From assembly GCF_051105105.1 (NCBI RefSeq), contig NZ_CP185339.1: a stretch of 64,000 bases of DNA, one strand, 5' to 3'. The notes under the pieces are model-generated. The model was not told the DNA's origin. It saw nothing but the letters and a program-made list of their open reading frames with translations, and made no database searches. This DNA is from Nannocystis pusilla. Lineage in GTDB: Bacteria > Myxococcota_A > Polyangia > Nannocystales > Nannocystaceae. Below are positions 26,386-37,935 of this stretch, piece after piece. Made by a program: the position numbers and the translations under genes. How positions within the stretch are numbered: position 1 is the stretch's first letter; the number at the start of each line of letters is the position of its first letter.

Positions 26386-28491
26386 TCAACCCGGCTCGAG
26401 GACGAACGGGTACGAGACGATGACCGAGCCGCCGCCTTCGGGCTTGGGGAAGGTCCAGCGCTTGACCGCCTGGGCGATGCAGGAGCCGACCGCCGGGTCC
26501 TTCATCGTGCTCTCCTGGACCACCGCGGTGGGCACCTTGCCGGTGCCGCCGATGGTGAACTGGACGGCGACGCGGCCCTTGGCGTTGGGGTCGCGGGCGA
26601 GGGCCTGGTTGTAGCAGTAGCGGACCTCGTTGATGTGCGCGCGGACGATGCGGCGGATGATGTCCTTGTCGAGCGCGCCCTGGACCTCGGCCTTGGCCTG
26701 ACGGACCGTCGGGACGCGGGTGCCGCGGCCGCCGAAGCCGGCGCCGGCGCCACGGCCGTAGCCGGAGCCCGTGCCGCCGCCGCCGCCCTTGCCGATGAGG
26801 CCCGTGTTGCCGAGGCCGATCGTGCCCTCGCCGGTGCCACCGCCGCCGCGGCCGGTGCCGACCAGGCCGAGGCCGCCGACGCCGTACGCCTCGCCGATCT
26901 CCGTGCCGGTGAGGCCGCCCCACACGTCCGCGTCGTCGTTGCCGACCGCGAACGCCCCGCCGTACGGCGAGGCGAGGAAGTGGCCGCTCTCGGCGCTCAT
27001 CACCCCGAGGATGCCGGCCTGGCGCGCGGCCATGTCGGGGTCGAAGTTACGGGCCATCTGCGGGATGGCGTCCTTCGGGCCCTTCATGGCGTAGAGGCCC
27101 GACTTGCTCTTCGAGGTGGGCTTGCCCATCTTGCCCTCCTCGCCCTTGTGGCGCTGACCGGTGCCGCCGGCCTCGTCGTCGGAGTTCTCCATGTCCTCCG
27201 GCGGCGGCTCCTCCTCCTCCGGCGGCTTGTCGGGCTGGTTGAGGTAACCGACGAAGCGGTTCTCTTCCATCATCTCGTCGAGGCTGAGGTTGCCGGCCTC
27301 GTTGGGGATCAGGTGCGTGAGCACCAGCAGGCTGCCGATGACCACGAACGACGCACCGTTGTAGATCCAGAACGGCTTGTCGGTCTCGCTGCCGCCCTTG
27401 ATCACCGCGCCCGGCGCGACCGAGTTCACGTAGAAGGTGACGTCCTGGTACTTGACCCGCGCCGTCGCTCCGGGCGGCAGCGGGAAGCTGAACGACGAGC
27501 CCTGCGAGCCCGCGCGGCCGGTCGCGACCAGCTGCTGCAGCGTGATCGTCTGGCCGTCGAAGGTGACCTCGCCGCTCATGTTCTGCGTGAAGTTGAGCGC
27601 GAACTCGTGGTCGCTGCCGCGGACCAGCGGAAAGCCGTTGGGCTCGGGCAGGCCGGCGGGCGGCACGTGGAACGACGCGCCGTGGCCCTCGCCGATCGTG
27701 AAGTTCTTGTTGACGTAGTCGCCGGTGCGGATGAGGCCCATGCTGAACGGCACGAGGCCCGCGATCGCCAGCAGCATGCCGATCGCCGCCAGACCGTTTC
27801 CGGGCGGGGTCGGGCGCGGCGTGCCCTGCTCGATCGACTCCTGGACCTTCTTGCCGTAGCCGGCCCAGTCCTGGTTCACGTCGCTGAAGAACACCCCCAC
27901 GCCCGCGACCAGCATCACGCCGCCGATGGCGAGGTAGAGCGGCGCCTGCGACTTGCGGTTCTTCAGCTGGCCGACGTGCTGCACGTCGAGCACCGTCGAG
28001 CCGTACATCGCCACGACCTCGGCCACCCGCGAGCCGCTCTGAACCTCGACCTCGCTGAGGTCGATCTGGATCGGCGCCCGCGTCGCCATCGGCGCCGCAG
28101 CGATCGGCGCCGCCGCGACCGCGGCCGCCGCCACGGCCACCGGCGCGGCCACCTGCGCCGGCGCCGGCGCAGCCGCGACCTGCTGCTTGGCGAAGCCGAC
28201 CTCGAGCCGGTACGGCCCGAAGTTCAGGGCGTCGCCGTCGTGCAGCACCGCGTTCTTGTCGATCCGCTGGCCGTTCAGCACGGTGCCCGCCGCGCTCCCG
28301 AGATCGATCACCCGCACCTCTTCGCCGGACACCTCGATCACGGCGTGCATGCGGGCCACGGCCTCGTCATCCAGACAGATGTGGCTACTCTTCAGTTTTC
28401 CGATCTTGATAACGTCTTGCGTCAGCGTCTGTGTATCGACGAGCTGATCGCCGTAAAACACTTTGATGGCGAGCGTCTTGGTCGTTGTCAT
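26386..28491 (-). CDS. FHA-domain membrane protein with a Gly-rich region and an AgmX/PglI-type (TonB-C-like) C-terminal domain
   Basis: N-terminal FHA (KIGKLKSSHICLDDEAVARMHAVIEV...GTVLNGQRI). A TM segment (LYLAIGGVMLVAGVGVFF), a G-rich low-complexity region, and the C-terminus IIRRIVRAHINEVRYCYNQAL...VAVQFTIGGTGKV...SVIVSYPFVL. Confidence 0.8.
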   Translation of the reverse strand: MTTTKTLAIKVFYGDQLVDTQTLTQDVIKIGKLKSSHICLDDEAVARMHAVIEVSGEEVRVIDLGSAAGTVLNGQRIDKNAVLHDGDALNFGPYRLEVGFAKQQVAAAPAPAQVAAPVAVAAAAVAAAPIAAAPMATRAPIQIDLSEVEVQSGSRVAEVVAMYGSTVLDVQHVGQLKNRKSQAPLYLAIGGVMLVAGVGVFFSDVNQDWAGYGKKVQESIEQGTPRPTPPGNGLAAIGMLLAIAGLVPFSMGLIRTGDYVNKNFTIGEGHGASFHVPPAGLPEPNGFPLVRGSDHEFALNFTQNMSGEVTFDGQTITLQQLVATGRAGSQGSSFSFPLPPGATARVKYQDVTFYVNSVAPGAVIKGGSETDKPFWIYNGASFVVIGSLLVLTHLIPNEAGNLSLDEMMEENRFVGYLNQPDKPPEEEEPPPEDMENSDDEAGGTGQRHKGEEGKMGKPTSKSKSGLYAMKGPKDAIPQMARNFDPDMAARQAGILGVMSAESGHFLASPYGGAFAVGNDDADVWGGLTGTEIGEAYGVGGLGLVGTGRGGGGTGEGTIGLGNTGLIGKGGGGGTGSGYGRGAGAGFGGRGTRVPTVRQAKAEVQGALDKDIIRRIVRAHINEVRYCYNQALARDPNAKGRVAVQFTIGGTGKVPTAVVQESTMKDPAVGSCIAQAVKRWTFPKPEGGGSVIVSYPFVLEPG

Positions 28492-28758
28492 CGTCCTTGC
28501 CCCGGTCGTGTGGCGCCTCGGACACGGCACTTTGGGGCTTGTTCCCGAGGCCCGCGAGCTTTTTTCGCGCCCGCGCGGGCCGTCTGCGCCGGCGCACGTC
28601 CGCGCGCGGACTCGGGCCCCGGGCGCGCCCCTGCGTCCGGCCACGCGTCCGCGGCTCGCGGCCGGCCGCGACGGCTTCGTGTTACCGTGACCCGAGGCGC
28701 CGTCCGTGCCCAGATCCGGGCGAGGCGCCTGCTGCCCCTCTCACGGCCTCGCCCCGGC

Positions 28759-29265
28759 ATGACCTCCGACCTCGCGCCTCCCTCACCTCCCGGCCCGAGC
28801 CCGATCCTCACCCTCCGGATCAGCGTCCGCGGCCTATATGACAGCTGGACGCACTGCCAGCGGCTGGCCGATTACATCGCGCGCTTCGTCGCCTCCGATC
28901 GTTTCGATCCCGAGCAGCTGACCACGCGCCTCTCGACCTATCTCAACGAGGTGCTCGAGTACGTATTCCGCGCCAGGCCGAGCGAGGGCGAGATCGTGGT
29001 CGAGGTCGGGCGCACCGACGAGCACGTGATCGCCGAGCTGACGATACCGACCGACGAGGCGCTCGCGCAGCGGCTGCGTGACGACCTCGGGCGGGTCGCG
29101 CCGGCGGACGCGCGGGCCCGCTACGAGGCCGAGTTCGAGTCGATGATCCTGCGCCCGCCGGCCGAGGTCGGGCTGCTCGAATTGGTCGCGCTCCACGGCG
29201 TCGAGCTCGCGCTGCGCGAGGGCGACGGTGCCGGCGTCATCGTCCTTACTGTCCCGCACGAGTGA
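28759..29265 (+). CDS. slr1658-superfamily regulator (GHKL/anti-sigma-kinase-like partner-switching component), copy 1
   Basis: YLNEVLEYVFRA is an N-box-like motif, and EGEIVVEVG follows. It is a paralogue of the 32858..33421 product. Confidence 0.6.
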   Translation: MTSDLAPPSPPGPSPILTLRISVRGLYDSWTHCQRLADYIARFVASDRFDPEQLTTRLSTYLNEVLEYVFRARPSEGEIVVEVGRTDEHVIAELTIPTDEALAQRLRDDLGRVAPADARARYEAEFESMILRPPAEVGLLELVALHGVELALREGDGAGVIVLTVPHE

Positions 29266-29277
29266 GCCGAGCTGGGT

Positions 29278-30450
29278 ATGGAGAACGAGCAACCGTTTTC
29301 GATCCGCTTCAGCGAGAACGACCAGGAGGTCGCGCTCGAGGGGACGCTGCGGCCCGCCGGCCCCGAGGCGTTCGCGCCGGTGCGGGCGCGCCTCGACCAC
29401 GCCGCCGACGCCGTGCGCGGCGTCCTCTACCTCAACTTCAAGCGCCTGCGTTACCTCAACCACACCGGCTTCCTCGAGCTCGCGCGCTTCATCGCCGCCT
29501 GCGCCGAGCGCCACCCGAGCCTCAAGCTCAAGCTCGTCGTCTCGAGCGTCGTCCCGTGGGCGCCGCTGCGGTTCGGCTTCCTCGGCGCGCAGTTCGGCAA
29601 CACCATCGTCGAGCAGTACGACAAGGCGTTTTACCCCGGCCAGGGCGTCATCGAGAACGACCAGCTCGTGCCGGTCCTGCGCACCCAGACCAACATCGTG
29701 TGGTCGCACGAGCGCGAGCTGCTGCGCCGCCACGGCCTCGGCAAGCGCATGCGGATCGCCGACATCTGCTGCGGGATCGGCGACTTCGCGGTGCTCGTCT
29801 ACAAGGAGTTCGAGCCCGCGTACATCGTCGGCGTCGACCACTCGCGGCCGTTCCTGCAGTACGCGCAGCAGATGGCCCGCGAGTTCGGCATCACCGACAT
29901 CGAGTATCAGTTCGGCGACGCGACCCACCTGTTCTTGCCGTCGAACAGCTTCGACTTCGTCACCTCGCGCCTGGCGCTGCAGATCTTCAACGACCCCTCG
30001 AGCATCCTCCGTGAGCTGGTGCGGATCTGCAAACCCGGCGGTCGGGTCTACCTGACGAATGAGATGACGGCGCACAACTACGGCTACCCGCGCCACGAGT
30101 CGGTCGCGTGGACCTACCAGCAGGCCGTGAAGATCGCCCAGAGCCTCGGCATGGACATGAACTTCGGGCCCAAGATGTTCTCGCAGCTCACCGACATGGG
30201 CCTCGAGGACGTGCGCATGGAGCAGATCCCGATCACCAACAACAACACCGCGATCGACGACTTCGCGCGGGTGATCGAGAGCTGGGAGGAGTACGTCACC
30301 GGCGAGCTGTCGACCGCCACGCAGCAGCCGCCGGAGGTGGTCGAGCGCCTGCGCATGGGCTTCCGCGATCACGTCTACGCGATCCGCAGCCGCCGCGGCT
30401 TCGCCACCTGGCCGATCTACGTCGCCTCCGGCCGCAAACCGGGGCGCTGA
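29278..30450 (+). CDS. STAS-like (slr1659-type antagonist) domain fused to a class I SAM-dependent methyltransferase
   Basis: The N-terminal ~120 aa align with the standalone 33418..33792 protein (EGTLRP...LNFKRLRYLNHTGF...LKLVVSSVVPWA). The C-terminus has the MTase motif I (IADICCGIGDFAV) and post-I motifs (GGRVYLTNE). Confidence 0.75.
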   Translation: MENEQPFSIRFSENDQEVALEGTLRPAGPEAFAPVRARLDHAADAVRGVLYLNFKRLRYLNHTGFLELARFIAACAERHPSLKLKLVVSSVVPWAPLRFGFLGAQFGNTIVEQYDKAFYPGQGVIENDQLVPVLRTQTNIVWSHERELLRRHGLGKRMRIADICCGIGDFAVLVYKEFEPAYIVGVDHSRPFLQYAQQMAREFGITDIEYQFGDATHLFLPSNSFDFVTSRLALQIFNDPSSILRELVRICKPGGRVYLTNEMTAHNYGYPRHESVAWTYQQAVKIAQSLGMDMNFGPKMFSQLTDMGLEDVRMEQIPITNNNTAIDDFARVIESWEEYVTGELSTATQQPPEVVERLRMGFRDHVYAIRSRRGFATWPIYVASGRKPGR

Positions 30451-30471: not shown

Positions 30472-32834
30472 ATGGCCACCACGGGCTCAAGGTTCCGCAC
30501 CAAGTTCGTCCTCGTCGCCGGGGTCGGGCTGGTGATCGGGCTGACGCTCGCGGCGCTGGCCTCGCTGCAGGGCATCCGCGTCCTCGGCGGCGACGCGTCG
30601 GAGGAGATCCGCAAGGGCCTCGAGCGGGCCAGCCGCGAGTACCTCACCAACCACATCGAGGACACCGCGCAGCGCGTCGAATTCTTGCGCGGGCGGGCGC
30701 GGGCCGAGGCTCGGCGTGCTCGCGGCCGTCACCCAGACGCTCATCGACGAGCAGGCCGACCTCGCGCCGCTGACCGCCGCCGCCGCCGCCGCCGGGCCGC
30801 TGCGCGACGCCCTCGTCTACGACCCGCGCGGCGACTGGTCGCAGACGGAGGCCGGCGAGCCGTCGGCGGTGGCCGTGTGGGGCTACCTGCACGCGCCGGC
30901 CGATCCGAATCGACCTGGCCTTCGGGACATCAAGCCCGAGGTCCGCGCCGCGGTCGATCAGACCGCCCTGCTCGACCTGCTGCTGCCCGCGCTGCTGCAG
31001 TACGGGGCCGAGAAGCAGGCCATGTACTTCATCGGCCCCGAGGGCGCCGAGTACCTGCGGATCGCCCCCTACGCCGACGCGGCCGGCCACGCCGACCAGC
31101 TCTATCCCGGCCACAACAAGAGCCCGTTCTGGAGCTTCTACTTCCCCGGCATCGTCGACGGCTGGCGGCGCTGGCTCGCCGATCCCGCGCGCATGCGCGA
31201 CCCGGCGGCGCAGGTCACGGGCACCGCGCCGTACACCGACGCAGGCGGCAGCGGGGCCATCATGACCATGTTCCAGCCGCTGTGGGACGCCTCGCGCGCG
31301 CGCTTCGCCGGGGCCGTCGGCGTCGACGTCACGCTCGGTCAGCTGATCCGCTACGTCCAGGATCTCGAGCTCGCCGGCTCGGGCTTCGCCTTCCTCGCCC
31401 AGGAGAACGGCAACGTGTTCGCCGTCAACGCCGACGGCCAGGAGATCCTCGGCCTGCAGCAGGCCAGCGGCTCCGCGGGCGCCGGCGTCGACATCTTCCA
31501 GCAGTTCCTGCACCAGTCGCGCGACCCGGCGATCCGGGCGCTCGCGCTGCCCGGCGGCGACGTCGTCGACTACCGCGACCCGGTCGCGATCGGCGGCGAG
31601 GACTACGTCGTCGTGCTCAAGCGGCTCGATCCGTTCAACGTCTGGTCGGGTTCGGCCGACATCGTGCCGGAGCGCTGGACCCTCGGCTTCGTCGTGCCTG
31701 CCGCCGAGATCTACGCCTCGCTGCACAAGGCGCAGGACACCATCGCCGCCAGCAGCCGCGGGATCCTCAGCAGCCAGGTCGTCATCACCCTCGTCGCGCT
31801 CGCGGTGGTGATGTTCGGGATCCTCCTGGTCTCGCGGCGCATGACCGGCGCGCTGGTCGACCTCGCCGCGGGCGCCGGCAAGATCGCGCAGAAGGACTAC
31901 GACGTGCGGGTCAACGTCCGCAGCGACGACGAGTTCGGCGCGCTCGGCCGCGCCTTCGACCAGATGGCCGCCGAGATCCGCGCGTATACGCACGACCTCG
32001 AGCGCCTGGTCGAGCAACGCACCGCCGAGCTGCAGCGGGCCTCCCGCGAGATCATGGCGCTCAACGAGCGGCTCAAGCAGGAGAACCTGCGCCTCGGCGC
32101 CGAGCTCGACGTCGCCCGCCGGCTGCAGCTCATGGTGCTGCCGCCGGAGCGCGAGCTGGCCGAGATCGAGGGCCTGGAACGTCGCCGGCTACATGCGCCC
32201 CGCGGACGAGGTCGGTGGCGACTACTACGACGTCCTGCGCGCCGGCGACGGCGTCAAGATCGGCATCGGCAACGTCACCGGCCACGGCCTCGAGAGCGGC
32301 GTGCTGATGCTGATGATCCAGACGGCCGTGCGCACCCTGCAGGCCGCCGAGGAGCGCGACGCGGAGCGCTTCCTCAACATCGTCAACAAGGTCCTCTACC
32401 AGAACATCCAGCGCGTCGGCCTCGACCGCACCGCGACGCTGGTGCTCCTCGACTACGCGCAGGGCGTGCTCCGCCTCACCGGGCAGCACGAGGAGGCGGT
32501 GGTGGTCCGGCGGGGCGGCTCGATCGAGCGCATCGACACGGTCGACCTCGGCATGCCTGTGGGGCTCGAGGTCGACATCGCCGCGTTCATCGCCCGCACC
32601 GAGCTGCGCCTGTCGCCGGGCGATGTCGTCGTCCTGTACACTGACGGCATAACCGAGGCGGAGGACATCCACGGCGAGCAGTACGGCATCGACCGCCTGT
32701 GCGAGGTCGTGCGCCGGGTCCACGAGCGGCCGGCGGCGGAGATCAAGCTGGCGATCATCGACAACGTCATGCGCTTCATCGGCGCGCAGAAGGTCTTCGA
32801 CGACATCACGACGGTGGTGATCAAGCGGCGCTGA
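30472..32834 (+). CDS. membrane sensor Ser/Thr phosphatase: TM-Cache(periplasmic)-TM-HAMP-coiled coil-PP2C/SpoIIE (RsbU-like); two frame disruptions
   Basis: TM1 FVLVAGVGLVIGLTLAALA, TM2 VVITLVALAVVMFGILLV, then HAMP, then the SpoIIE domain MRPADEVGGDYYDV...GNVTGHGLESG...LYTDGITE. Three track ORFs (30472, 30716, 32193) concatenate, with 1-nt offsets near 30690 and 32185. Confidence 0.8.
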
Positions 32835-32857: not shown

Positions 32858-33421
32858 ATGGACGGCATCATCGGCGAGTACAAAGAGCCCACCGACGCTG
32901 GACCGCGCGTCATGCTGACGTTTTACCCCGGGGCGTTCCCGGTCAAGTGGAACCAGTGCAGCGTGGCGGCCGACTTCTTCGCCGAGTACTTCGTCGACGT
33001 CGGCGAGGGCGGGCTCACCGAGGAGGCCGAGCGGCGCGACTTCGTCGGCAGCGTCGGCTACGTGCTCAACGAGCTGATCGAGAATGCGGTCAAGTTCTGC
33101 GCCGGCGGCACCGTCGTCATCGACGCGGGCGTCGAGGCGGGCGAGTTCGTGGTCGTCGTCAGCAACCAGGTCTGCGGCGACGCGGTCGACGGCCTGCGGC
33201 TCAAGTTCGCCGAACTGCTCGACGGCGATCCCGCCGAGCTCCTGATGCAGCGGGTCGAGGACAACGCCGCCAACCCCGACCTCACGACCTCGGGCCTGGG
33301 CTTTCTCACCATGCTGTCGGACTACAAGGCCCGGCTCGGCTGGCGCTTCGACCCCGCCCCTGGCAATCCTGACAACGCGCTCCTCAAGACCGCCGCCCGG
33401 CTACAGGTGAAATCGTCATGA
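32858..33421 (+). CDS. slr1658-superfamily regulator (GHKL-like), copy 2
   Basis: VGYVLNELIENAVKFCAGGTVVIDAG is an HATPase N-box-like motif. The start was taken inside ORF 32699..33421. Confidence 0.65.
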   Translation: MDGIIGEYKEPTDAGPRVMLTFYPGAFPVKWNQCSVAADFFAEYFVDVGEGGLTEEAERRDFVGSVGYVLNELIENAVKFCAGGTVVIDAGVEAGEFVVVVSNQVCGDAVDGLRLKFAELLDGDPAELLMQRVEDNAANPDLTTSGLGFLTMLSDYKARLGWRFDPAPGNPDNALLKTAARLQVKSS

Positions 33422-33792
33422 CGGACACAACTACGCGACCCTCCGGGTCGGACACCGACATCAAAGGCCCCGGCTATCGCGTGTGGTTCGACGCGCCCGC
33501 GAGCACGGTCCACTTCGAGGGCGTGCTCCGCCTCAGCACCAGCGAGTACAAGCCGATCGAGGACCTGCTCGACCGCGTCCTGCTGGAAAGCCCCGCGCTC
33601 GCCCTGCGCATGACCGAGCTGCAGTTCCTCAACAGCTCGGGCATCAACATGCTCTACAAGTTCGCCATCGCCGCGCGCAAGAAGGGCGAGACCGAGATCA
33701 AGGTCCACGGCTCGTCGACCATCCCGTGGCAGGGCAAGTCGCTGCCCAACCTCAAGAAGTTCCTGCCGACGATCGTCATCGCGCTCGACTGA
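33418..33792 (+). CDS. slr1659-superfamily regulator (STAS/anti-sigma-antagonist-like)
   Basis: 124 aa, translationally coupled to the previous gene through an ATGA overlap. It aligns with the N-terminus of the 29278 product. Confidence 0.65.
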   Translation: MTDTTTRPSGSDTDIKGPGYRVWFDAPASTVHFEGVLRLSTSEYKPIEDLLDRVLLESPALALRMTELQFLNSSGINMLYKFAIAARKKGETEIKVHGSSTIPWQGKSLPNLKKFLPTIVIALD

Positions 33793-33805: not shown

Positions 33806-35032
33806 ATGCTCACGGATGACCCGCGCTGGCGGCGAGCCCTCGCCGACCCCGACGCCGCGGCCGAGCTCCTGGCCGACCCGGCCGCGCGCGCCGAGTTCAT
33901 GGCCGCCGTCGCCGCGCTGCAGGCCGAGCACGACGACCTGGTGCTGCTGCACGACTCGACGCTCGAGCACGCCAACGAGATCGAGGAGCAGCTGGCCGTC
34001 AAGATCGAGCAGGTCGAGGCGCTGGTGGTCGAGCTCGAGCTGCGCAACACCTTCATCCGCCAGGTGTTCGGCCGCCACGTCACCGACGAGGTCGTCAACA
34101 CCTTGCTCGCCTCGCCGGAGGGCCGCCAGCTCGGCGGCGAGCGGCGCACCCTGACGATCCTGATCTCCGACCTGCGCGGCTTCTCCACCCTCTGCGAGGG
34201 CCTGGGCCCCGAGCAGGTGGTGGCGATCCTCAACATCTACCTCGGCGCCATGGCCGACGTGATCGGCGAGTACCGCGGCTCGATCAACGAGTTCATCGGC
34301 GACGCCATCCTCGCGGTGTTCGGCGCCCCGGTGCCGCAGGAGGACCACCCCGAGCGCGCCGTCGCCTGCGCGATCGCCATGCAGCGGGCGATGGGCCGCG
34401 TCAACGCCGAGCTGGCCGAGCACGGCCTGCCCGCGCTCGAGATGGGCATCGGCGTCCACACCGGCGAGGTCGTGGTCGGCAACATCGGCTCGAACCGCCG
34501 CGCCAAGTACGGCGTGGTCGGCCGCCACGTCAACCTGACGTCGCGCATCGAGAGCTACACCGTCGGCGGCCAGGTGTTGATCTCCGAGTCGGCCGCGCGG
34601 GCCCTCGGCGACCGCCTCCGCACCCGCGGCTGCTTCGAGGTCCGGCCCAAGGGCGTGCGCGAGCCGATCCGGATCCACAACGTCACCGGCGTCGACGGCC
34701 CGTTCGCCATCCACATGATCGAAGAGGCCGCCGCGTGGCGGGTCCTGGCCGAGCCGCAGCCGCTCGTGTTCACCGCGCTCGAGGGCAAGGACACCGGCGG
34801 CCAGGAGTTCCCGGCGCTGCTCGTTGCCCACGACGAGCGCCACAACGCCGAGCTGCAGGTCGGCGCCCCGCTGCCGCTGCGCGCCGACCTCAAGCTCGTG
34901 CTCGCCGCCCTGCCCGGCGTCGACGCCTACGCCAAGGTCGTCGCCGCCGGCCCGGGCCGCGCGACGGTCCGCTTCACCGCCCTGCCGCGCGCGCTGCAAG
35001 AGCTGCTCGACTCCCTGCCCGCGCGCGAGTGA
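33806..35032 (+). CDS. class III adenylate/guanylate cyclase (CHD domain) with an N-terminal coiled-coil and a C-terminal regulatory region
   Basis: LTILISDLRGFSTLCEGLGPEQVVAILNIYLGAMADVIGEYRGSINEFIGDAILAVFGAP...GIGVHTGEVVVGNIGSNRRAKYGVVGRHVNLTSRIES. Confidence 0.85.
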   Translation: MLTDDPRWRRALADPDAAAELLADPAARAEFMAAVAALQAEHDDLVLLHDSTLEHANEIEEQLAVKIEQVEALVVELELRNTFIRQVFGRHVTDEVVNTLLASPEGRQLGGERRTLTILISDLRGFSTLCEGLGPEQVVAILNIYLGAMADVIGEYRGSINEFIGDAILAVFGAPVPQEDHPERAVACAIAMQRAMGRVNAELAEHGLPALEMGIGVHTGEVVVGNIGSNRRAKYGVVGRHVNLTSRIESYTVGGQVLISESAARALGDRLRTRGCFEVRPKGVREPIRIHNVTGVDGPFAIHMIEEAAAWRVLAEPQPLVFTALEGKDTGGQEFPALLVAHDERHNAELQVGAPLPLRADLKLVLAALPGVDAYAKVVAAGPGRATVRFTALPRALQELLDSLPARE

Positions 35033-35124
35033 GGCGCCAGGACAGGCTCGCGGAGGGCGTGGGGAGGCGCCCGGCCGAGCCGGTGCCGCGTGGGAGGTCG
35101 GGCGCGCCGAAGTGACCGGGCCGT

Positions 35125-35195
35125 CCGGGCATGTCCCGATCGACATGTCCTCTCTGACATGCCGATTGGAGCATGTCCCATGGGACATGACCGTG
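35125..35195. repeat. REP-like cluster between convergent genes
   Basis: gggcatgtcccgatcgacatgtcctctctgacatgccgattggagcatgtcccatgggacatgacc. Confidence 0.7.
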
Positions 35196-35215
35196 CAGCC
35201 AGCCCGCATCAAGTG

Positions 35216-36728
35216 TCAGTCGCGGCGGGCCAGCAGCGTCGCGTGCATGTCGCTGCCGTCGATGCTCTCGTCGAGCGGCTCGTCGATGTCGATGATCACG
35301 CTCTCGCCGCCCGAGCTCGTCGGCGGCGGGATCGGCGGGACGGAGCGCGGCGCGACCGAACCCGGCTGGGCCTCGACGGGGGCCGTCCGCGACCCGCGGC
35401 CCTCGACGCCGGCGAAGCGGGCCGCGAGGGTGCGCACGAACGCGCCCATCCACGGCTTCATCGAACGTCAGCTCCTCCTCGATCAGGTCGCTGGTGATCT
35501 TGGTGAGCGTGGCGTCCTCGACCACCAGCACGCTGGCGGTCCGGCGCGAGGCGGCGAAGATCAACGTCTCGCCGAACACGTCGCCCGGCCCGAGCCAGCG
35601 CAGCGACACGTGGTGCCCGGCCTCGAGCTTGTAGACCTCGAGCCGGCCGGCCAGCACGATGTAGGCCGCGTCGCCGATCTCACCCTCGCGGATCACGTGG
35701 TCGCCGGCGGCGAAGCGGACCGTCTGGAAGCTGCCGCTGCCGCGCAGCAGGCGGACGATGTCGGCCTGCAGCGCCGCCACGCTCGGATAGCGATCGTCGG
35801 GGTCGCGGCGCAGCGCCCGCGTCACGATGCGCACCAGCTCGCGCGGGAACGGCACCGCGACGTGGCTATCGGGCGACGCGAACTTCGCCTCGCGCGCGAG
35901 GATCAGCGCGTCCATCGCCGTGCGCGCCTGGTACGGCGGCTTCCCGACCATCATCTCGTAGAGCAGCGCGCCCATCGAGAACACGTCGGCGCGCTCGTCG
36001 AGCGGATGGCTGTTGGCCTGCTCCGGCGACATGTACGACGGCGTGCCGAACACCAGCCCGTCGGTCTCCGACGGCGGCAGCGGCGGCAGGGCGTCGCGGA
36101 CCCAATGCGCCTCGTCTTCGCTGGACCGGAGCGGCAGGATCTGGGCCCCGCCCCAGTCCATCAAATAGACCTGGCCGTAGGCGCCGACCATCACGTTGGC
36201 CGACTTGATGTCGCAGTGGATCACCCCGCGGCTGTGGGCGAACGACAGCGCGTCGCACACCTTGACGAAGATCTCGAGGCGGTGGAACAGCCGCTCGTGG
36301 TCGGTCGCCGGCTCGCCGCCGATCAGCGCCTTCAGGCTCTGGCCCTCGACCAGCTTCATCGTGAAGTAGAGCTGGCCCTGCTCGTCGCGCCCGAGCTCGT
36401 GGATCGGCACGATGTTGGGGTGGTCGAGCTGACCGGTCACCTGGGCCTCGCGCAAGAACCCGTGCACGAGCATCAGGTGGTCGTAGGTCTTGGCGTGCAT
36501 GACCTTGGCGGCCATCCGCCGCTGCAGCACCTCGTCGAACGCGAGCCGCACCGAGCCCATCCCGCCGCGCGCCAGCTCGTCGCCGAACGACAGCCGCGGC
36601 ACTTGGTCCGGCAGCGCCGCGCGGATGAGGGCCTCGAGCCGCTCCTCATAGGAGAGCGGGGAGTCGCGGTCGAACAGCCGCTCGAGCGCGGCGCTGGGGG
36701 ACGAGCCTCCGGGGCGGCGACCTGGCAT
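35216..36728 (-). CDS. Ser/Thr protein kinase fused to a cyclic-nucleotide-binding (CAP-family effector) domain; C-terminal frame switch near 35460
   Basis: Kinase motifs VIHCDIKSANVMV, DWGGA, GTPSYMSPEQ. The cNMP domain reads FAAGDHVIREGEIGDAAYIVLAGRLEVYK...GPGDVFGE. The Arg/Pro-rich tail of ORF 34974..36878 is implausible, while the small ORF 35216..35461 supplies a protein-like C-terminus. Confidence 0.8.
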
Positions 36729-36780
36729 GCGGGGCCACGATACAATGCCGCCTCGGCGGTGGTACACCGGGGCGGCCGGC

Positions 36781-37935
36781 ATGGACCTGCGCACCGCCCT
36801 CGTCACGCTCCGCTTGCGCCACCCGTTCGGCCTGTCGCGCGGCACCGTGAGCGAACTGCCGAGCTTGCTCGTGCGCATCGACCCGGGCGACCCGGACGGT
36901 GCCGCAGCGGATGGCCCCGATCGCCGCGGCCTCGGCGAGGCCGCGCCCGTGCGCTACCTCGGTCAGTCGGCGATCGCCGCCGCGCCTCTGGCCACCGCGA
37001 TCGCGGCCGAGCTGTCCCCCGAGATCCTCGTCGACCCGCGCGCGATCGCGGCCGCCGGTCCGCGCATGCGCGAGCTCGCCCCCGACCACTCCGCGGCCCG
37101 CTGCGCCGTCGACACCGCCCTGTGGGACGCGGCCGCGCGCGCCCGCGGCCGCCCGCTGGCCGAGCTGCTGGCCGACCCGGACGTGCTCGATCGGGCAGGT
37201 CTCGATCGCCATGTCCTTTCGGCCACCTCGGGGGCCACGGTCACCTCTTACACGATCGCGCTCGACGAGCTCCCGGCGATGGCGGCCCGCGCGGCCGCGG
37301 CCGCGCACCTCCCGGTGCTCAAGATCAAGCTCGGCAAAAATCGCGATTTCGACCGCGCGGCCGTGCGTGCGATCGCCGCCGCCGCCCCGAACGCCCGCCT
37401 GCGGGTCGACGCCAACGGCGGCTGGACCCCGGACGACGTGCGCGCTCTGCTCCCGCTGCTGGTCGACCTCGGGGTCGAGCAGCTCGAGCAGCCGCTGCCT
37501 GCGGGTCGGCCCGACCTTCTCGCGGCGCTCGCGCGCGACTGTCCCCTGCCGATCTACGCCGACGAGGACGTACAGGGGCCGGACGACGTGGCGGCGCTGC
37601 GGGGTCGGGTCGCGGGGATCAACGTCAAGCTGATGAAGTGCGGCGGGATCTCGCCGGCCCTGGCGACGATCGCCGCGGCCCGGGACAGCGGCCTGCGGGT
37701 GCTCGTCGGCTGCATGATCGAGACCCGCGTCGGGCTCGCCGCGGGCGCCGCCCTGGCCCGCCTCGCCGACGAGGCCGACCTCGACGCCCACATGCTCACG
37801 CGGGCCGACCCGATGCCGCCGGGGAGCCAAGAGCGGCTCGCGCCCGACCTCCCGCGGCTTTGCGGCCCCGGCCTCGGCGTCCCGCCGGGGGCGTTGCCCG
37901 CGGACGGCGACCCGGGGCCCGGGCGCGTGGCATAA
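36781..37935 (+). CDS. enolase-superfamily enzyme, mandelate racemase/muconate lactonizing family (dipeptide epimerase/OSBS-like)
   Basis: KIKLG, VDANGGW, LEQP, ADE and KLMKCGG are the catalytic K-x-K, D, E, D, K positions. Confidence 0.8.
   Translation: MDLRTALVTLRLRHPFGLSRGTVSELPSLLVRIDPGDPDGAAADGPDRRGLGEAAPVRYLGQSAIAAAPLATAIAAELSPEILVDPRAIAAAGPRMRELAPDHSAARCAVDTALWDAAARARGRPLAELLADPDVLDRAGLDRHVLSATSGATVTSYTIALDELPAMAARAAAAAHLPVLKIKLGKNRDFDRAAVRAIAAAAPNARLRVDANGGWTPDDVRALLPLLVDLGVEQLEQPLPAGRPDLLAALARDCPLPIYADEDVQGPDDVAALRGRVAGINVKLMKCGGISPALATIAAARDSGLRVLVGCMIETRVGLAAGAALARLADEADLDAHMLTRADPMPPGSQERLAPDLPRLCGPGLGVPPGALPADGDPGPGRVA

What the first reader, a model, noticed from the sequence alone, without database searches (positions are those of the whole stretch)
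29278..30450. Anti-sigma-antagonist-like (STAS/slr1659-type) domain fused to a SAM-dependent methyltransferase
The N-terminal ~120 aa align with the standalone slr1659-type protein at 33418-33792. The remaining ~270 aa are a complete class I methyltransferase (motif I IADICCGIGDF). Putting a partner-switching receiver directly on a methyltransferase implies methylation activity controlled by phosphorylation or partner binding. For STAS modules this is an unusual effector.
Basis: partly seen in the sequence, partly recalled or inferred. Interest (0 to 1): 0.5.

Follow-up and report, generated by a model that had tools for sequence, protein, structure and literature searches.

The report
STAS-like domain fused to methyltransferase
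This gene really does encode a switch-protein-like (STAS) domain fused to a working methyltransferase, but both the STAS domain and the kinase-like protein encoded next to it have lost their phosphorylation parts, so the enzyme is probably controlled by protein binding inside a conserved, unstudied five-gene signalling cassette.

Summary

The fusion is not a local oddity. Relatives occur in 487 species genomes (Myxococcota, Alpha-/Gammaproteobacteria, Verrucomicrobiota), almost always in the same gene order:
- a degenerate slr1658-like protein
- the STAS-methyltransferase
- a dCache-HAMP-PP2C phosphatase
- a canonical slr1658
- a canonical slr1659

The interpretation needs correcting. The canonical pair keeps the kinase-type N-box Asn (83/83) and the NSSG phospho-acceptor motif (81/83). 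The pair around the methyltransferase has lost both: Asn in 0/85, and Ser/Thr at the acceptor position in 1/87 loci. Phosphorylation control of the fusion is therefore unlikely.

I infer that the adjacent pseudo-kinase controls or tethers the enzyme by binding its STAS domain, and that this couples it to the canonical phospho-switch. The methylation substrate is unknown. The "UbiE/quinone methyltransferase" annotations are unsupported.

Verdict: a new variant of partner-switching systems, uncharacterised in the searchable literature, of moderate interest.

The parts
28759..29265 (+). Degenerate slr1658-like protein ('pseudo-kinase', 168 aa), encoded immediately upstream of the fusion
   Evidence: NF047703 slr1658_superfam at E 4.1e-9, 36 bits, below the cutoff of 100. 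hhalign against canonical slr1658 gives 98.3%, E 1.6e-14. The N-box reads LNEVLEYVF, with Tyr where the canonical protein has Asn. The Asn is absent in 85/85 orthologues and the SGLG motif is lost. Its stop lies 12 nt before the fusion's ATG. The gap is <=20 nt or an overlap in 72/85 loci.
29278..30450 (+). The finding: a 390-aa STAS-like/class I SAM methyltransferase fusion protein (stop codon included)
   Evidence: Intact ORF. More than 120 full-length homologue clusters of 385-425 aa. The full-length AF2 model has pLDDT 90.5 and pTM 0.79.
29293..29616 (+). N-terminal STAS-like (slr1659-type) domain, residues ~6-113. The would-be phospho-acceptor position is His62 (motif LNHTG)
29617..29730 (+). 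Highly conserved linker/lid, EQYDxAFYPGQGVIE...LRTQTxIxWxHER. It contains invariant Y114, D115, Y119, Q122, L134, Q137, W142 and E145
   Evidence: Alignment A1 of 35 homologues. pLDDT is lower here (62-71) in the AF2 model.
29731..30447 (+). Class I SAM-dependent methyltransferase core plus a family-specific C-terminal region. Motif I is IADICCGIGDF. Invariant residues include D187/H188, G213/D214/A215, D226, P253/G255, W336, G374 and W378
   Evidence: Pfam Methyltransf_11/25/31 above cutoffs. Foldseek against PDB: 3mgg E 7.6e-21, LahSb 6uak 3.9e-19, then PMTs, RebM and TmtA/GtmA.
30472..32834 (+). dCache-HAMP-PP2C (SpoIIE-type) sensor phosphatase, SiaA-like. In this window it is split over three reading frames by two 1-nt insertions (~30708 and ~32178)
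   Evidence: Pfam HAMP, dCache_1 and SpoIIE. Weak SiaA hit. It is a single ORF of ~783-795 aa in the relatives examined, apart from L007. The insertions were mapped against three Nannocystis genomes.
32858..33421 (+). Canonical slr1658 superfamily protein (GHKL-like; a putative Ser kinase/anti-factor)
   Evidence: NF047703 at 142.2 bits, above the cutoff of 100. Weak SiaB-family kinase and HATPase_c hits. The N-box LNELIENAVKF and the SGLG motif are invariant in 83/83.
33418..33792 (+). Canonical standalone slr1659 superfamily STAS-like protein with the NSSG acceptor motif
   Evidence: NF047705 at 125.9 bits. Weak Pfam STAS and TIGR00377 hits. NSSG is present in 81/83 orthologues. There is a 4-nt ATGA overlap with the slr1658 stop.
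33806..35032 (+). Class III adenylate/guanylate cyclase, probably an output of the canonical switch
   Evidence: Pfam Guanylate_cyc at E 3.1e-26. The N-terminal helix motif LL..(S/T)(L/I)EH....E..L is shared with cassette-linked cyclases and small PP2Cs elsewhere. A cyclase lies within the flanks of 17/80 surveyed loci.

Best explanation
The gene encodes a catalytically competent class I SAM methyltransferase. Its N-terminus is a STAS-fold domain descended from the slr1659 family that has lost the phospho-acceptor serine.

It is the second gene of a conserved operon-like cassette:
- a degenerate slr1658-like pseudo-kinase
- the STAS-methyltransferase
- a dCache-HAMP-PP2C sensor phosphatase
- a canonical slr1658 (kinase-like)
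- a canonical slr1659 (phosphorylatable STAS)
- often a class III cyclase or another signalling enzyme nearby

Shown: the fold, the homologies, the intact SAM-binding motifs, the near-universal gene order, and the complementary degeneration (active kinase motifs paired with an NSSG acceptor in one pair; no N-box Asn paired with no acceptor in the other).

Inferred: the pseudo-kinase binds the STAS domain of the methyltransferase without phosphorylating it, and so gates or localises the enzyme. The two pairs are paralogous. The phosphorylation state of free slr1659, set by the ligand-sensing PP2C and the slr1658 kinase, could therefore redistribute partners by competing for the same interfaces. 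The methyltransferase would then act as an output arm of the switch without ever being phosphorylated itself.

The methyl acceptor is unknown. It could be a small molecule or a component of the cassette.
For: Fusion and fold.

Active-site conservation: motif I, D187, D214, D226 and PGG are invariant in 35 homologues down to 47% identity.

Distribution: the fusion is conserved full-length in more than 120 protein clusters and 487 species genomes across at least three phyla.

Synteny in the 80 best loci:
- pseudo-kinase upstream in 78/79
- PP2C directly downstream in 76/79
- canonical slr1658 plus slr1659 downstream in 78/78, where the contig allows

Kinase motifs: N-box Asn and Lys and SGLG are present in 83/83 canonical slr1658 proteins, against Asn in 0/85 of the methyltransferase-adjacent paralogues. 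The Asn is already lost in deep-branching low-GC versions.

Acceptor site: NSSG in 81/83 standalone slr1659 proteins, against Ser/Thr in 1/87 fusion loci and 3/116 fusion proteins. Position 62 is the first residue of helix alpha2, which is where SiaC Thr68 lies (PMC8457831). From my own knowledge, SpoIIAA Ser58 occupies the same place.

Coupled expression: the pseudo-kinase stop to fusion start distance is overlapping or <=20 nt in 72/85 loci.

Physical interaction of the canonical pair: slr1658 and slr1659 are fused into one 305-aa protein in Sorangium, a Rosetta-stone argument.

Retained surface: the residues shared by the fusion's STAS domain and slr1659 (G-x-L-R in beta2, the Asn before alpha2, the P-W after beta4) are kept while only the acceptor is lost.
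Against: - No binding, activity or complex prediction was possible. Structure jobs were capped and no multimer tool exists, so the pseudo-kinase/STAS interaction and its effect on catalysis are inferred from gene adjacency and paralogy only.
- The assignment of slr1658 as a GHKL kinase rests on weak hits: HATPase_c E 0.003, SiaB family 22.7 bits against a cutoff of 85, and PDB histidine-kinase N-box matches at E 0.15-0.7. It also rests on motif logic.
- In this window's protein, Thr63 sits next to the canonical position (LNHTG). In two deep-branching members Ser/Thr occupies the canonical position. Lineage-specific phosphorylation is therefore not excluded.
- Three Nannocystis MAG loci lack the PP2C inside the cassette.
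- The structural neighbours of the methyltransferase are small-molecule or peptide methyltransferases. These give no link to a signalling substrate.
Confidence: 0.55

Rival explanations
1. Targeting rather than gating. The STAS domain, with the pseudo-kinase as adaptor, docks the methyltransferase onto the signalling complex so that it methylates a cassette component, for example the HAMP/signalling helix of the dCache-HAMP-PP2C, or the cyclase. This would provide feedback or adaptation, in the way the methyltransferase RsbM methylates the sensor kinase RsbK in the Bacillus cereus sigma-B partner-switching pathway.
For: - The only genes invariably linked to the fusion are signalling proteins. 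No biosynthetic or metabolic neighbours are conserved.
- The fusion gene lies immediately upstream of the sensor phosphatase in 76/79 loci.
- There is a precedent for a methyltransferase acting on the sensor of a partner-switching pathway (PMC4574943, seen).
- One of the closest structures, LahSb, methylates a peptide carboxylate.
Against: - The enzyme is not CheR-type. Its best structural and sequence neighbours are mostly small-molecule methyltransferases: UbiE-like, PMT, RebM, TmtA/GtmA.
- No methyl-acceptor motif was identified in the neighbours.
- This reading is compatible with, rather than exclusive of, the best explanation.
Confidence: 0.25
2. Phospho-regulated enzyme. A GHKL-type kinase phosphorylates the STAS domain and the PP2C dephosphorylates it, and this switches methyltransferase activity.
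For: - The cassette contains an apparently active kinase-like slr1658 and a PP2C.
- This window's protein has Thr63 directly after the canonical position. HTG/NTG/NTA-type motifs, with Thr at +1, occur in about 20% of homologues.
- Two deep-branching members carry Ser/Thr at the canonical position.
Against: - The canonical acceptor position is N/H/F/Y in 113/116 proteins and 86/87 loci. The +1 position is mostly V/A/L/I.
- The standalone slr1659 in the same cassette keeps NSSG in 81/83, so selection for an acceptor is visible where it matters.
- The cognate upstream paralogue lacks the ATP-binding Asn in 85/85, including in the deep-branching members that carry Ser/Thr.
Confidence: 0.1
3. The STAS-like domain is a ligand-binding or oligomerisation module unrelated to partner switching. 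Some STAS domains bind nucleotides, lipids or ACP, and some simply dimerise the enzyme.
Against: - The closest sequence relatives are the slr1659 partner-switch proteins, not the transporter STAS domains.
- The strict pairing with an slr1658 paralogue in 78/79 loci, often with overlapping stop and start codons, is hard to explain without a protein partner.
Confidence: 0.07
4. Annotation or assembly artefact: two separate genes wrongly joined, or a UbiE/MenG quinone methyltransferase with a meaningless N-terminal extension.
For: - Public names include 'quinone methyltransferase' and 'UbiE'.
- This window does contain indel errors or frameshifts in neighbouring genes.
Against: - The same single ORF of 385-425 aa is present in 87/87 loci and more than 120 clusters from independent assemblies.
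- The window's ORF shows no indel relative to four Nannocystis genomes (L006, L007, L008, L022).
- The linker is among the most conserved segments.
- UbiE/MenG models score 63-70 bits against cutoffs of 158-420.
Confidence: 0.01

Closest known systems
SiaABCD of Pseudomonas aeruginosa (PP2C SiaA, kinase SiaB, STAS-like SiaC, diguanylate cyclase SiaD)
   Same: - The logic and parts list of the surrounding cassette match: a HAMP-PP2C sensor phosphatase, a small GHKL-like kinase, a small STAS-fold phosphoprotein with an N-T/S-S acceptor at the start of helix alpha2, and a nucleotide cyclase output.
- Weak direct hits to the SiaA and SiaB models.
- Unphosphorylated SiaC binds and activates the enzyme SiaD, and phosphorylation of T68 blocks this (PMC8457831).
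   Different: - The scores are far below family cutoffs (SiaB 22.7 against 85; SiaA 66 against 700).
- The cyclase here is class III, not GGDEF.
- Sia has no methyltransferase, no second degenerate kinase/STAS pair, and no STAS domain covalently fused to an enzyme.
SpoIIAA/SpoIIAB/SpoIIE and RsbV/RsbW/RsbU partner-switching modules
   Same: - GHKL-type N-box and glycine motif in the canonical slr1658.
- PP2C phosphatase.
- Acceptor Ser at the N-cap of alpha2 in the standalone slr1659.
   Different: - No sigma factor is involved.
- The fusion's STAS domain lacks the acceptor Ser, and its partner lacks the ATP-binding Asn.
- Pfam STAS and TIGR00377 do not reach their thresholds, even for the standalone protein.
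slr1658/slr1659 superfamilies (NCBIfam NF047703/NF047705; Synechocystis Slr1657-1660 module)
   Same: - The window's 32858-33421 and 33418-33792 are bona fide members (142 and 126 bits).
- The fusion's N-domain and the upstream 168-aa protein are their divergent paralogues.
- In Synechocystis, disruption of slr1658 impairs recovery from iron starvation (Zer et al. 2018, as cited in PMC7555055).
   Different: - The fusion's N-domain (42.9 bits) and the pseudo-kinase (36 bits) fall below the 100-bit cutoffs and lack the families' signature motifs.
- No biochemical mechanism is published for either family in the searchable library.
RsbK-RsbM-RsbY-RsbV-RsbW of Bacillus cereus
   Same: A methyltransferase is an integral, co-encoded regulator of a PP2C/STAS/kinase partner-switching pathway. 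RsbM methylates the sensor RsbK (PMC4574943).
   Different: From my own knowledge, RsbM is a CheR-type enzyme, stands alone and has no STAS domain. Here the enzyme is UbiE/Methyltransf_11-like and carries the STAS domain itself. Its substrate is unknown.
Non-phosphorylated STAS partners and STAS fusions (MlaB-MlaF, SLC26/SulP STAS, RsbR, YtvA LOV-STAS)
   Different: Those fusions put a sensor or a transporter on the STAS domain. Here a catalytic output enzyme is fused C-terminally. The closest sequence relatives are partner-switch proteins, not transporter STAS domains.
Small-molecule/peptide class I methyltransferases (M. mazei 3mgg, LahSb 6uak, phosphoethanolamine MTs, RebM, TmtA/GtmA, UbiE/COQ5)
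   Same: Rossmann-type SAM-MT fold and motifs. Foldseek E 1e-15 to 8e-21, TM up to 0.80 on the target. Pfam Ubie_methyltran E 1.9e-16.
   Different: - Only 14-23% identity.
- UbiE/MenG equivalog cutoffs are not reached.
- A family-specific invariant N-terminal lid (YD..FYPGQ) and C-terminal region.
- None of these enzymes carries a STAS domain.

Membership tests
STAS / anti-sigma-factor antagonist (SpoIIAA-like) fold | Four- or five-stranded beta-sheet with alpha helices in the order beta-beta-alpha-beta-alpha-beta-alpha(-beta) | tested here: met
   [not shown]
STAS / anti-sigma-factor antagonist (SpoIIAA-like) fold | Sequence-model membership (Pfam PF01740 STAS / PF13466 STAS_2, or TIGR00377, at the curated cutoff) | tested here: not met
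   No Pfam or TIGR00377 hit for residues 1-125 of the fusion at E<=0.1. Only 2 of 120 homologues carry a precomputed STAS_2 hit.
STAS / anti-sigma-factor antagonist (SpoIIAA-like) fold | Phosphorylatable Ser/Thr at the N-terminus of helix alpha2 (for the phospho-regulated antagonist subclass) | tested here: not met
   His62 in this protein. The position is N/H/F/Y in 113/116 homologues and 86/87 loci.
slr1659 superfamily regulator (NCBIfam NF047705) | HMM score at or above the curated cutoff (100 bits) | tested here: not met
   42.9 bits, E 5.1e-11, residues 5-94. The standalone neighbour scores 125.9 bits.
slr1659 superfamily regulator (NCBIfam NF047705) | Homology over the whole domain | tested here: met
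   hhalign gives 97.3% probability, E 2.7e-11, 107 aligned columns. A profile search of 1.84 billion representatives returns the fusion subfamily first, then ~112-118-aa slr1659-like proteins.
slr1659 superfamily regulator (NCBIfam NF047705) | Invariant L-N-S-S-G motif and encoding next to an slr1658-type gene | tested here: inconclusive
   The motif is not kept: LN[N/H/F]x[G/A]. Adjacency is kept, but to a degenerate slr1658 paralogue.
Class I SAM-dependent methyltransferase | Pfam methyltransferase model above the gathering score | tested here: met
   Methyltransf_11 69.6 bits (cutoff 21.2), Methyltransf_25 65.3 (27), Methyltransf_31 65.2 (27).
Class I SAM-dependent methyltransferase | Glycine-rich motif I, an acidic residue at the end of beta2, and an acidic residue after beta3 | tested here: met
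   A161, C165, G166 and G168 are invariant; D162 and I163 are nearly invariant (>=90%). D187, D214 and D226 are invariant in 35 homologues.
Class I SAM-dependent methyltransferase | Rossmann-like seven-stranded fold | tested here: met
   AF2 pLDDT 90.5. Foldseek E 7.6e-21 to 3mgg, plus hundreds of class I methyltransferases.
Class I SAM-dependent methyltransferase | SAM binding and methyl transfer | not testable with these tools
   Needs a biochemical assay.
UbiE/MenG quinone C-methyltransferase (the public annotation of several homologues) | Equivalog/subfamily HMM at the curated cutoff | tested here: not met
   TIGR01934 66.4 bits against 158.35. NF001244 70.5 against 216. TIGR02752 63.7 against 419.85.
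SiaABCD-type signalling module | SiaB-family kinase, SiaA phosphatase and SiaC (DUF1987) at family cutoffs, with a GGDEF output | tested here: not met
   [not shown]
Partner-switching system (generic: PP2C + GHKL Ser kinase/anti-factor + STAS phosphoprotein) | All three component types are co-encoded, with intact catalytic and acceptor motifs | tested here: met
   In the canonical arm of the cassette: SpoIIE domain E 4e-38; slr1658 N-box and SGLG in 83/83; slr1659 NSSG in 81/83. In this window the PP2C reading frame is interrupted twice, probably by sequencing errors.
Partner-switching system (generic: PP2C + GHKL Ser kinase/anti-factor + STAS phosphoprotein) | Mutually exclusive binding of partners, controlled by phosphorylation | not testable with these tools
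   Requires binding and phosphorylation assays.

The most novel reading that the evidence does not exclude
The cassette is a previously unrecognised two-tier partner switch. An ancient pseudo-kinase/pseudo-substrate pair (the degenerate slr1658-like protein and the acceptor-less STAS domain) holds a methyltransferase that is wired covalently to the decoy antagonist. The canonical PP2C/slr1658/slr1659 phospho-switch releases or recruits that enzyme by competing for partners. The enzyme then methylates a component of its own pathway (adaptation or feedback), or makes a methylated small-molecule signal. That would add SAM-dependent methylation as a direct output class of STAS partner switching in Myxococcota, rhizobia, Gammaproteobacteria and Verrucomicrobiota.
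Probability: 0.3. Interest if true: 0.75.

Novelty: new variant of a known kind. Interest (0 to 1): 0.55.

Why it matters
Partner-switching modules (PP2C, GHKL kinase, STAS) are best known for controlling sigma factors. More recently they have been found to control a diguanylate cyclase (SiaABCD). Here a STAS domain is fused to a methyltransferase and paired with a dedicated pseudo-kinase, inside a cassette kept almost unchanged across several phyla. The organisms include plant-associated rhizobia and secondary-metabolite-rich myxobacteria.

If the model is right, three things follow:
- It shows how a phospho-switch can drive an enzyme that is never phosphorylated, through degenerate paralogues.
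- It gives a first functional handle on the uncharacterised slr1658/slr1659 superfamilies, one of which has an iron-stress phenotype in Synechocystis.
- It corrects misleading 'UbiE/quinone methyltransferase' annotations.

It is directly testable with a few purified proteins.

Tried and rejected
- **Direct BLASTP.** The N-terminus against the standalone slr1659 gave no alignment. Pseudo-kinase against slr1658 gave only E 0.001. Profile methods were needed.
- **Pfam on the N-domain.** Nothing.
- **PDB sequence search with the slr1658 profile.** Only marginal histidine-kinase N-box matches, E 0.12-1.1, so GHKL membership stays motif-based.
- **Full-length fold search.** Dominated by generic class I methyltransferases; it did not reveal a substrate class.
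- **Literature.** Searches for slr1658/slr1659, DUF6272 and STAS+methyltransferase found no mechanistic work and no description of the fusion.
- **Gene-fusion or assembly artefact.** Considered and rejected.
- **PP2C as a true pseudogene.** Considered, which would make the system dead in this strain. I judged this less likely than indel errors. A third window-specific 1-nt insertion hits a neighbouring gene, and two of the three are at GACGTC sites. It is not settled.
- **Covariation test.** I asked whether deep-branching fusions with Ser/Thr at the acceptor site keep an active upstream kinase. They do not; Tyr replaces the Asn. That covariation argument for phosphorylation fails.
- **Not possible.** No multimer prediction or PAE/coordinate access was available, so the STAS/pseudo-kinase and STAS/methyltransferase interfaces could not be examined.
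Full report
**Setting**

The window is about 72% G+C. The closest loci I fetched are Nannocystis genomes: 97.7-97.9% DNA identity to N. pusilla Na p29 and Nannocystis sp. RBIL2 over the region.

Around the finding, six genes lie head to tail on the + strand with tiny or overlapping intergenic gaps:
- 28759-29265, a 168-aa small protein
- 29278-30450, the finding
- 30472-32834, a dCache-HAMP-PP2C
- 32858-33421, slr1658-type
- 33418-33792, slr1659-type
- 33806-35032, a class III cyclase

Yes. The ORF is intact: 390 aa, ATG at 29278, TGA at 30448-30450. It has the same length as the annotated N. pusilla orthologue (96% identity).

Residues ~128-270 match several Pfam class I methyltransferase models well above their cutoffs (Methyltransf_11 E 3.8e-19). 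In 35 homologues down to 47% identity, A161, C165, G166 and G168 of motif I, D187, D214, D226 and the PGG turn are invariant. The enzyme therefore looks catalytically competent.

Residues 5-94 match NCBIfam NF047705 'slr1659 superfamily regulator' at E 5.1e-11. That is 42.9 bits, below the curated 100-bit cutoff.

BLASTP finds no alignment. A profile-profile comparison gives 97.3% probability, E 2.7e-11, over 107 columns at 22% identity.

**Is the fusion real and conserved?**

A word-indexed search returned more than 120 clusters of full-length homologues: 385-425 aa, 96-100% query coverage for all but one truncated entry, 47-96% identity. They come from Nannocystaceae, Sorangium/Polyangium, Alphaproteobacteria (for example Inquilinus) and Chthoniobacter.

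A scan of one genome per species found relatives in 487 of 185,579 species. The 80 best loci add Mesorhizobium, Sinorhizobium/Ensifer, Rhizobium, Roseibium/Labrenzia, Devosia and Parvibaculum, and Gammaproteobacteria (Rhodanobacteraceae, Competibacteraceae).

A profile of the N-domain alone, searched against 1.84 billion representatives, found only 177 clusters. The top ones are fusion proteins or contig-truncated fragments of them; the fragments still carry the EQYD..FYPGQ linker. These are followed by standalone slr1659-type proteins of ~112-118 aa. The acceptor-less subtype of the domain thus seems to exist only on this methyltransferase. The artefact explanation is excluded.

**The cassette**

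I built HMMs from my alignments and scanned all six-frame ORFs of 88 loci. In the 80 species-level loci:
- A divergent slr1658-like gene lies immediately upstream of the fusion in 78 of the 79 loci where the contig allows.
- A dCache-HAMP-PP2C gene lies immediately downstream in 76/79. It is missing inside the cassette only in three Nannocystis MAGs.
- A canonical slr1658 followed by a canonical slr1659 lies downstream in 78/78.
- A class III cyclase lies within the flanks in 17/80.

Elsewhere the variable neighbour is a small PP2C or a GGDEF-EAL protein. The upstream gene's stop overlaps the fusion's start, or lies within 20 nt of it, in 72/85 loci. In Sorangium, slr1658 and slr1659 are fused into one 305-aa protein, which argues that these two families interact physically.

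**The key result: complementary degeneration**

The cassette contains two paralogous pairs. The upstream protein is homologous to slr1658 at hhalign 98.3%, E 1.6e-14.

| Feature | Canonical pair (slr1658 + slr1659) | Methyltransferase pair (pseudo-kinase + fusion N-domain) |
|---|---|---|
| GHKL-type N-box (LNELxENAxKF) Asn | 83/83 | 0/85 (T/V/L/A/Y/I/M/F/W instead) |
| N-box Lys | 83/83 | mostly Arg (64/85) |
| SGLG glycine motif | 83/83 | first Gly gone |
| Acceptor motif at the N-cap of alpha2 | L-N-S-S-G in 81/83 | Ser/Thr in 1/87 loci and 3/116 proteins; N, H, F or Y otherwise |

This window's protein reads LNHTG, with His62 as the first residue of helix alpha2. That position corresponds to the N-T68-S patch at the start of alpha2 in SiaC, where phosphorylation controls partner binding (PMC8457831). 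From my own knowledge, SpoIIAA Ser58 occupies the same place.

Deep-branching low-GC fusions happen to carry Ser/Thr at the site. Even they have an upstream partner with Tyr in place of the Asn. The pseudo-kinase state is therefore ancient.

Other surface positions shared by the fusion's STAS domain and slr1659 are retained: G-x-L-R in beta2, the Asn before alpha2, and P-W after beta4.

**How it most likely works**

Shown: a competent-looking SAM methyltransferase carries an acceptor-less STAS domain. It is co-encoded, probably co-translated, with a kinase-dead paralogue of the protein that partners the canonical STAS. Both sit in one operon-like unit with a ligand-sensing PP2C, an apparently active small kinase and a phosphorylatable STAS protein.

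Inferred: the pseudo-kinase binds the fusion's STAS domain and thereby gates or positions the methyltransferase. The two pairs are paralogous. The phosphorylation state of free slr1659 (PP2C versus slr1658) can therefore shift partners by competition. Methylation would then become an output of the switch without the enzyme being phosphorylated.

A closely related alternative is that the STAS/pseudo-kinase pair merely tethers the enzyme to the complex so that it methylates a pathway component. B. cereus RsbM does this to the sensor RsbK (PMC4574943).

The substrate is unknown. Structural neighbours are small-molecule and peptide methyltransferases: 3mgg, LahSb, PMTs, RebM, TmtA/GtmA. No metabolic genes are conserved nearby. 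UbiE/MenG models are far below their cutoffs, so the 'quinone methyltransferase/UbiE' names are unsupported.

**Comparison with what is known**

The canonical arm works like SiaABCD and the SpoIIA/Rsb modules. It fails their family cutoffs (SiaB 22.7 against 85 bits; SiaA 66 against 700; TIGR00377 14.9 against 53), and it has a class III cyclase rather than a GGDEF output.

The slr1658 and slr1659 superfamilies are named in NCBIfam. In the searchable literature they have only a genetic phenotype: the Synechocystis slr1658 mutant has an iron-starvation-recovery defect (cited in PMC7555055). They are also listed as unknowns in a predicted network (PMC4614683).

No paper mentions DUF6272 or these superfamilies by name, and none describes a STAS-methyltransferase fusion. 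That library is incomplete, so absence there is not proof.

**Verdict**

The distinctive features are an unusual, conserved pseudo-kinase/pseudo-substrate arm and a methyltransferase output.

Interest is about 0.55. It is clearly real, widespread and unstudied, and testable with a handful of proteins. The mechanism and the substrate remain inferred.

**Caveat for this window**

The PP2C gene is broken by two 1-nt insertions (at ~30708 and ~32178), and the downstream cNMP-binding Ser/Thr kinase gene by one (at 35464), relative to three close Nannocystis genomes. Two of the three are at GACGTC sites. I take these as probable sequencing or assembly errors, but a genuinely inactivated phosphatase in this strain cannot be excluded. 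The methyltransferase ORF itself is unaffected.

Noticed in passing
window 30708, 32178 (in the PP2C gene 30472-32834) and 35464 (in the gene at 34974-36878, minus strand): There are three window-specific 1-nt insertions relative to Nannocystis genomes L007, L008 and L022: GAGCTC->GAGGCTC, GGACGTC->GGAACGTC and CGACGTC->CGAACGTC. They frameshift the dCache-HAMP-PP2C gene twice and the C-terminus of the cNMP-binding Ser/Thr kinase gene once. In the same 17 kb the window has 9 GACGTC and 5 GAACGTC, against 14 and 3 in L008. This looks like systematic indel error, perhaps at a methylated palindrome, rather than real pseudogenes. L007 (Na p29) has its own 1-nt deletion in the PP2C gene (equivalent to window 31303).
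   Followed up: partly
window 33806-34180 (cyclase N-terminus); L003:4967-5356(-), L005:4899-5288(-), L074:6900-7301(-), L048, L063, L046, L052, L001:10663-11050: The class III cyclases and the small (~300-360 aa) PP2C proteins that flank the cassette in different phyla share an N-terminal helix motif just before their catalytic domains. The consensus is LLYxxxIEHGEAVEDQL; L38, E54, H55, E60 and L63 (window cyclase numbering) are invariant (alignment A5). By analogy with SiaC binding the SiaD stalk helices, this could be the docking site for unphosphorylated slr1659.
   Followed up: partly
L001:9697-10614 (Sorangium cellulosum So ce56) and equivalent positions in the other Sorangium/Polyangium loci (L028, L031-L040, L053, L056, L069 and others): In Sorangium So ce56 the canonical slr1658 and slr1659 are fused into one 305-aa protein (151 and 141 bits to the two NCBIfam models). 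In Sorangium/Polyangium a second, much more divergent triad follows downstream: a small PP2C, a kinase-like protein and a STAS-like protein, with HMM scores of 18-100.
   Followed up: partly
Proteins P0145, P0154, P0161, P0155, P0257, P0221: There are other architectures of the slr1659-type domain. Tandem doubles of ~230-250 aa each carry LNSSG. One 1259-aa protein has 11 matched stretches. A 372-aa protein has an LNSSG STAS domain fused to an unrelated helical C-terminal domain. P0221 is a further slr1658-slr1659 fusion.
   Followed up: no
window 34974-36878 (-) and 26386-28644 (-): A Ser/Thr protein kinase with a cNMP-binding domain lies directly after the cyclase gene on the opposite strand, which could form a cyclic-nucleotide relay. 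Upstream, an FHA-domain protein (699 aa as annotated in the orthologue; 752-aa ORF in the window) is encoded divergently from the cassette. Domain assignments are from the annotated orthologous locus L006.
   Followed up: no
L012, L013, L014 (Nannocystis MAGs): These three loci keep the pseudo-kinase, the fusion, slr1658, slr1659 and the cyclase, but lack the dCache-HAMP-PP2C between the fusion and slr1658. A PP2C-like hit lies further upstream on the opposite strand instead.
   Followed up: no
window 29617-29730 (residues 114-151 of the fusion): The segment between the STAS and methyltransferase cores is among the most conserved parts of the protein: Y114, D115, Y119, Q122, L134, Q137, W142 and E145 are invariant. 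Yet it has the lowest model confidence (pLDDT 62-71). It may be a lid or partner-binding element that becomes ordered only in a complex.
   Followed up: no
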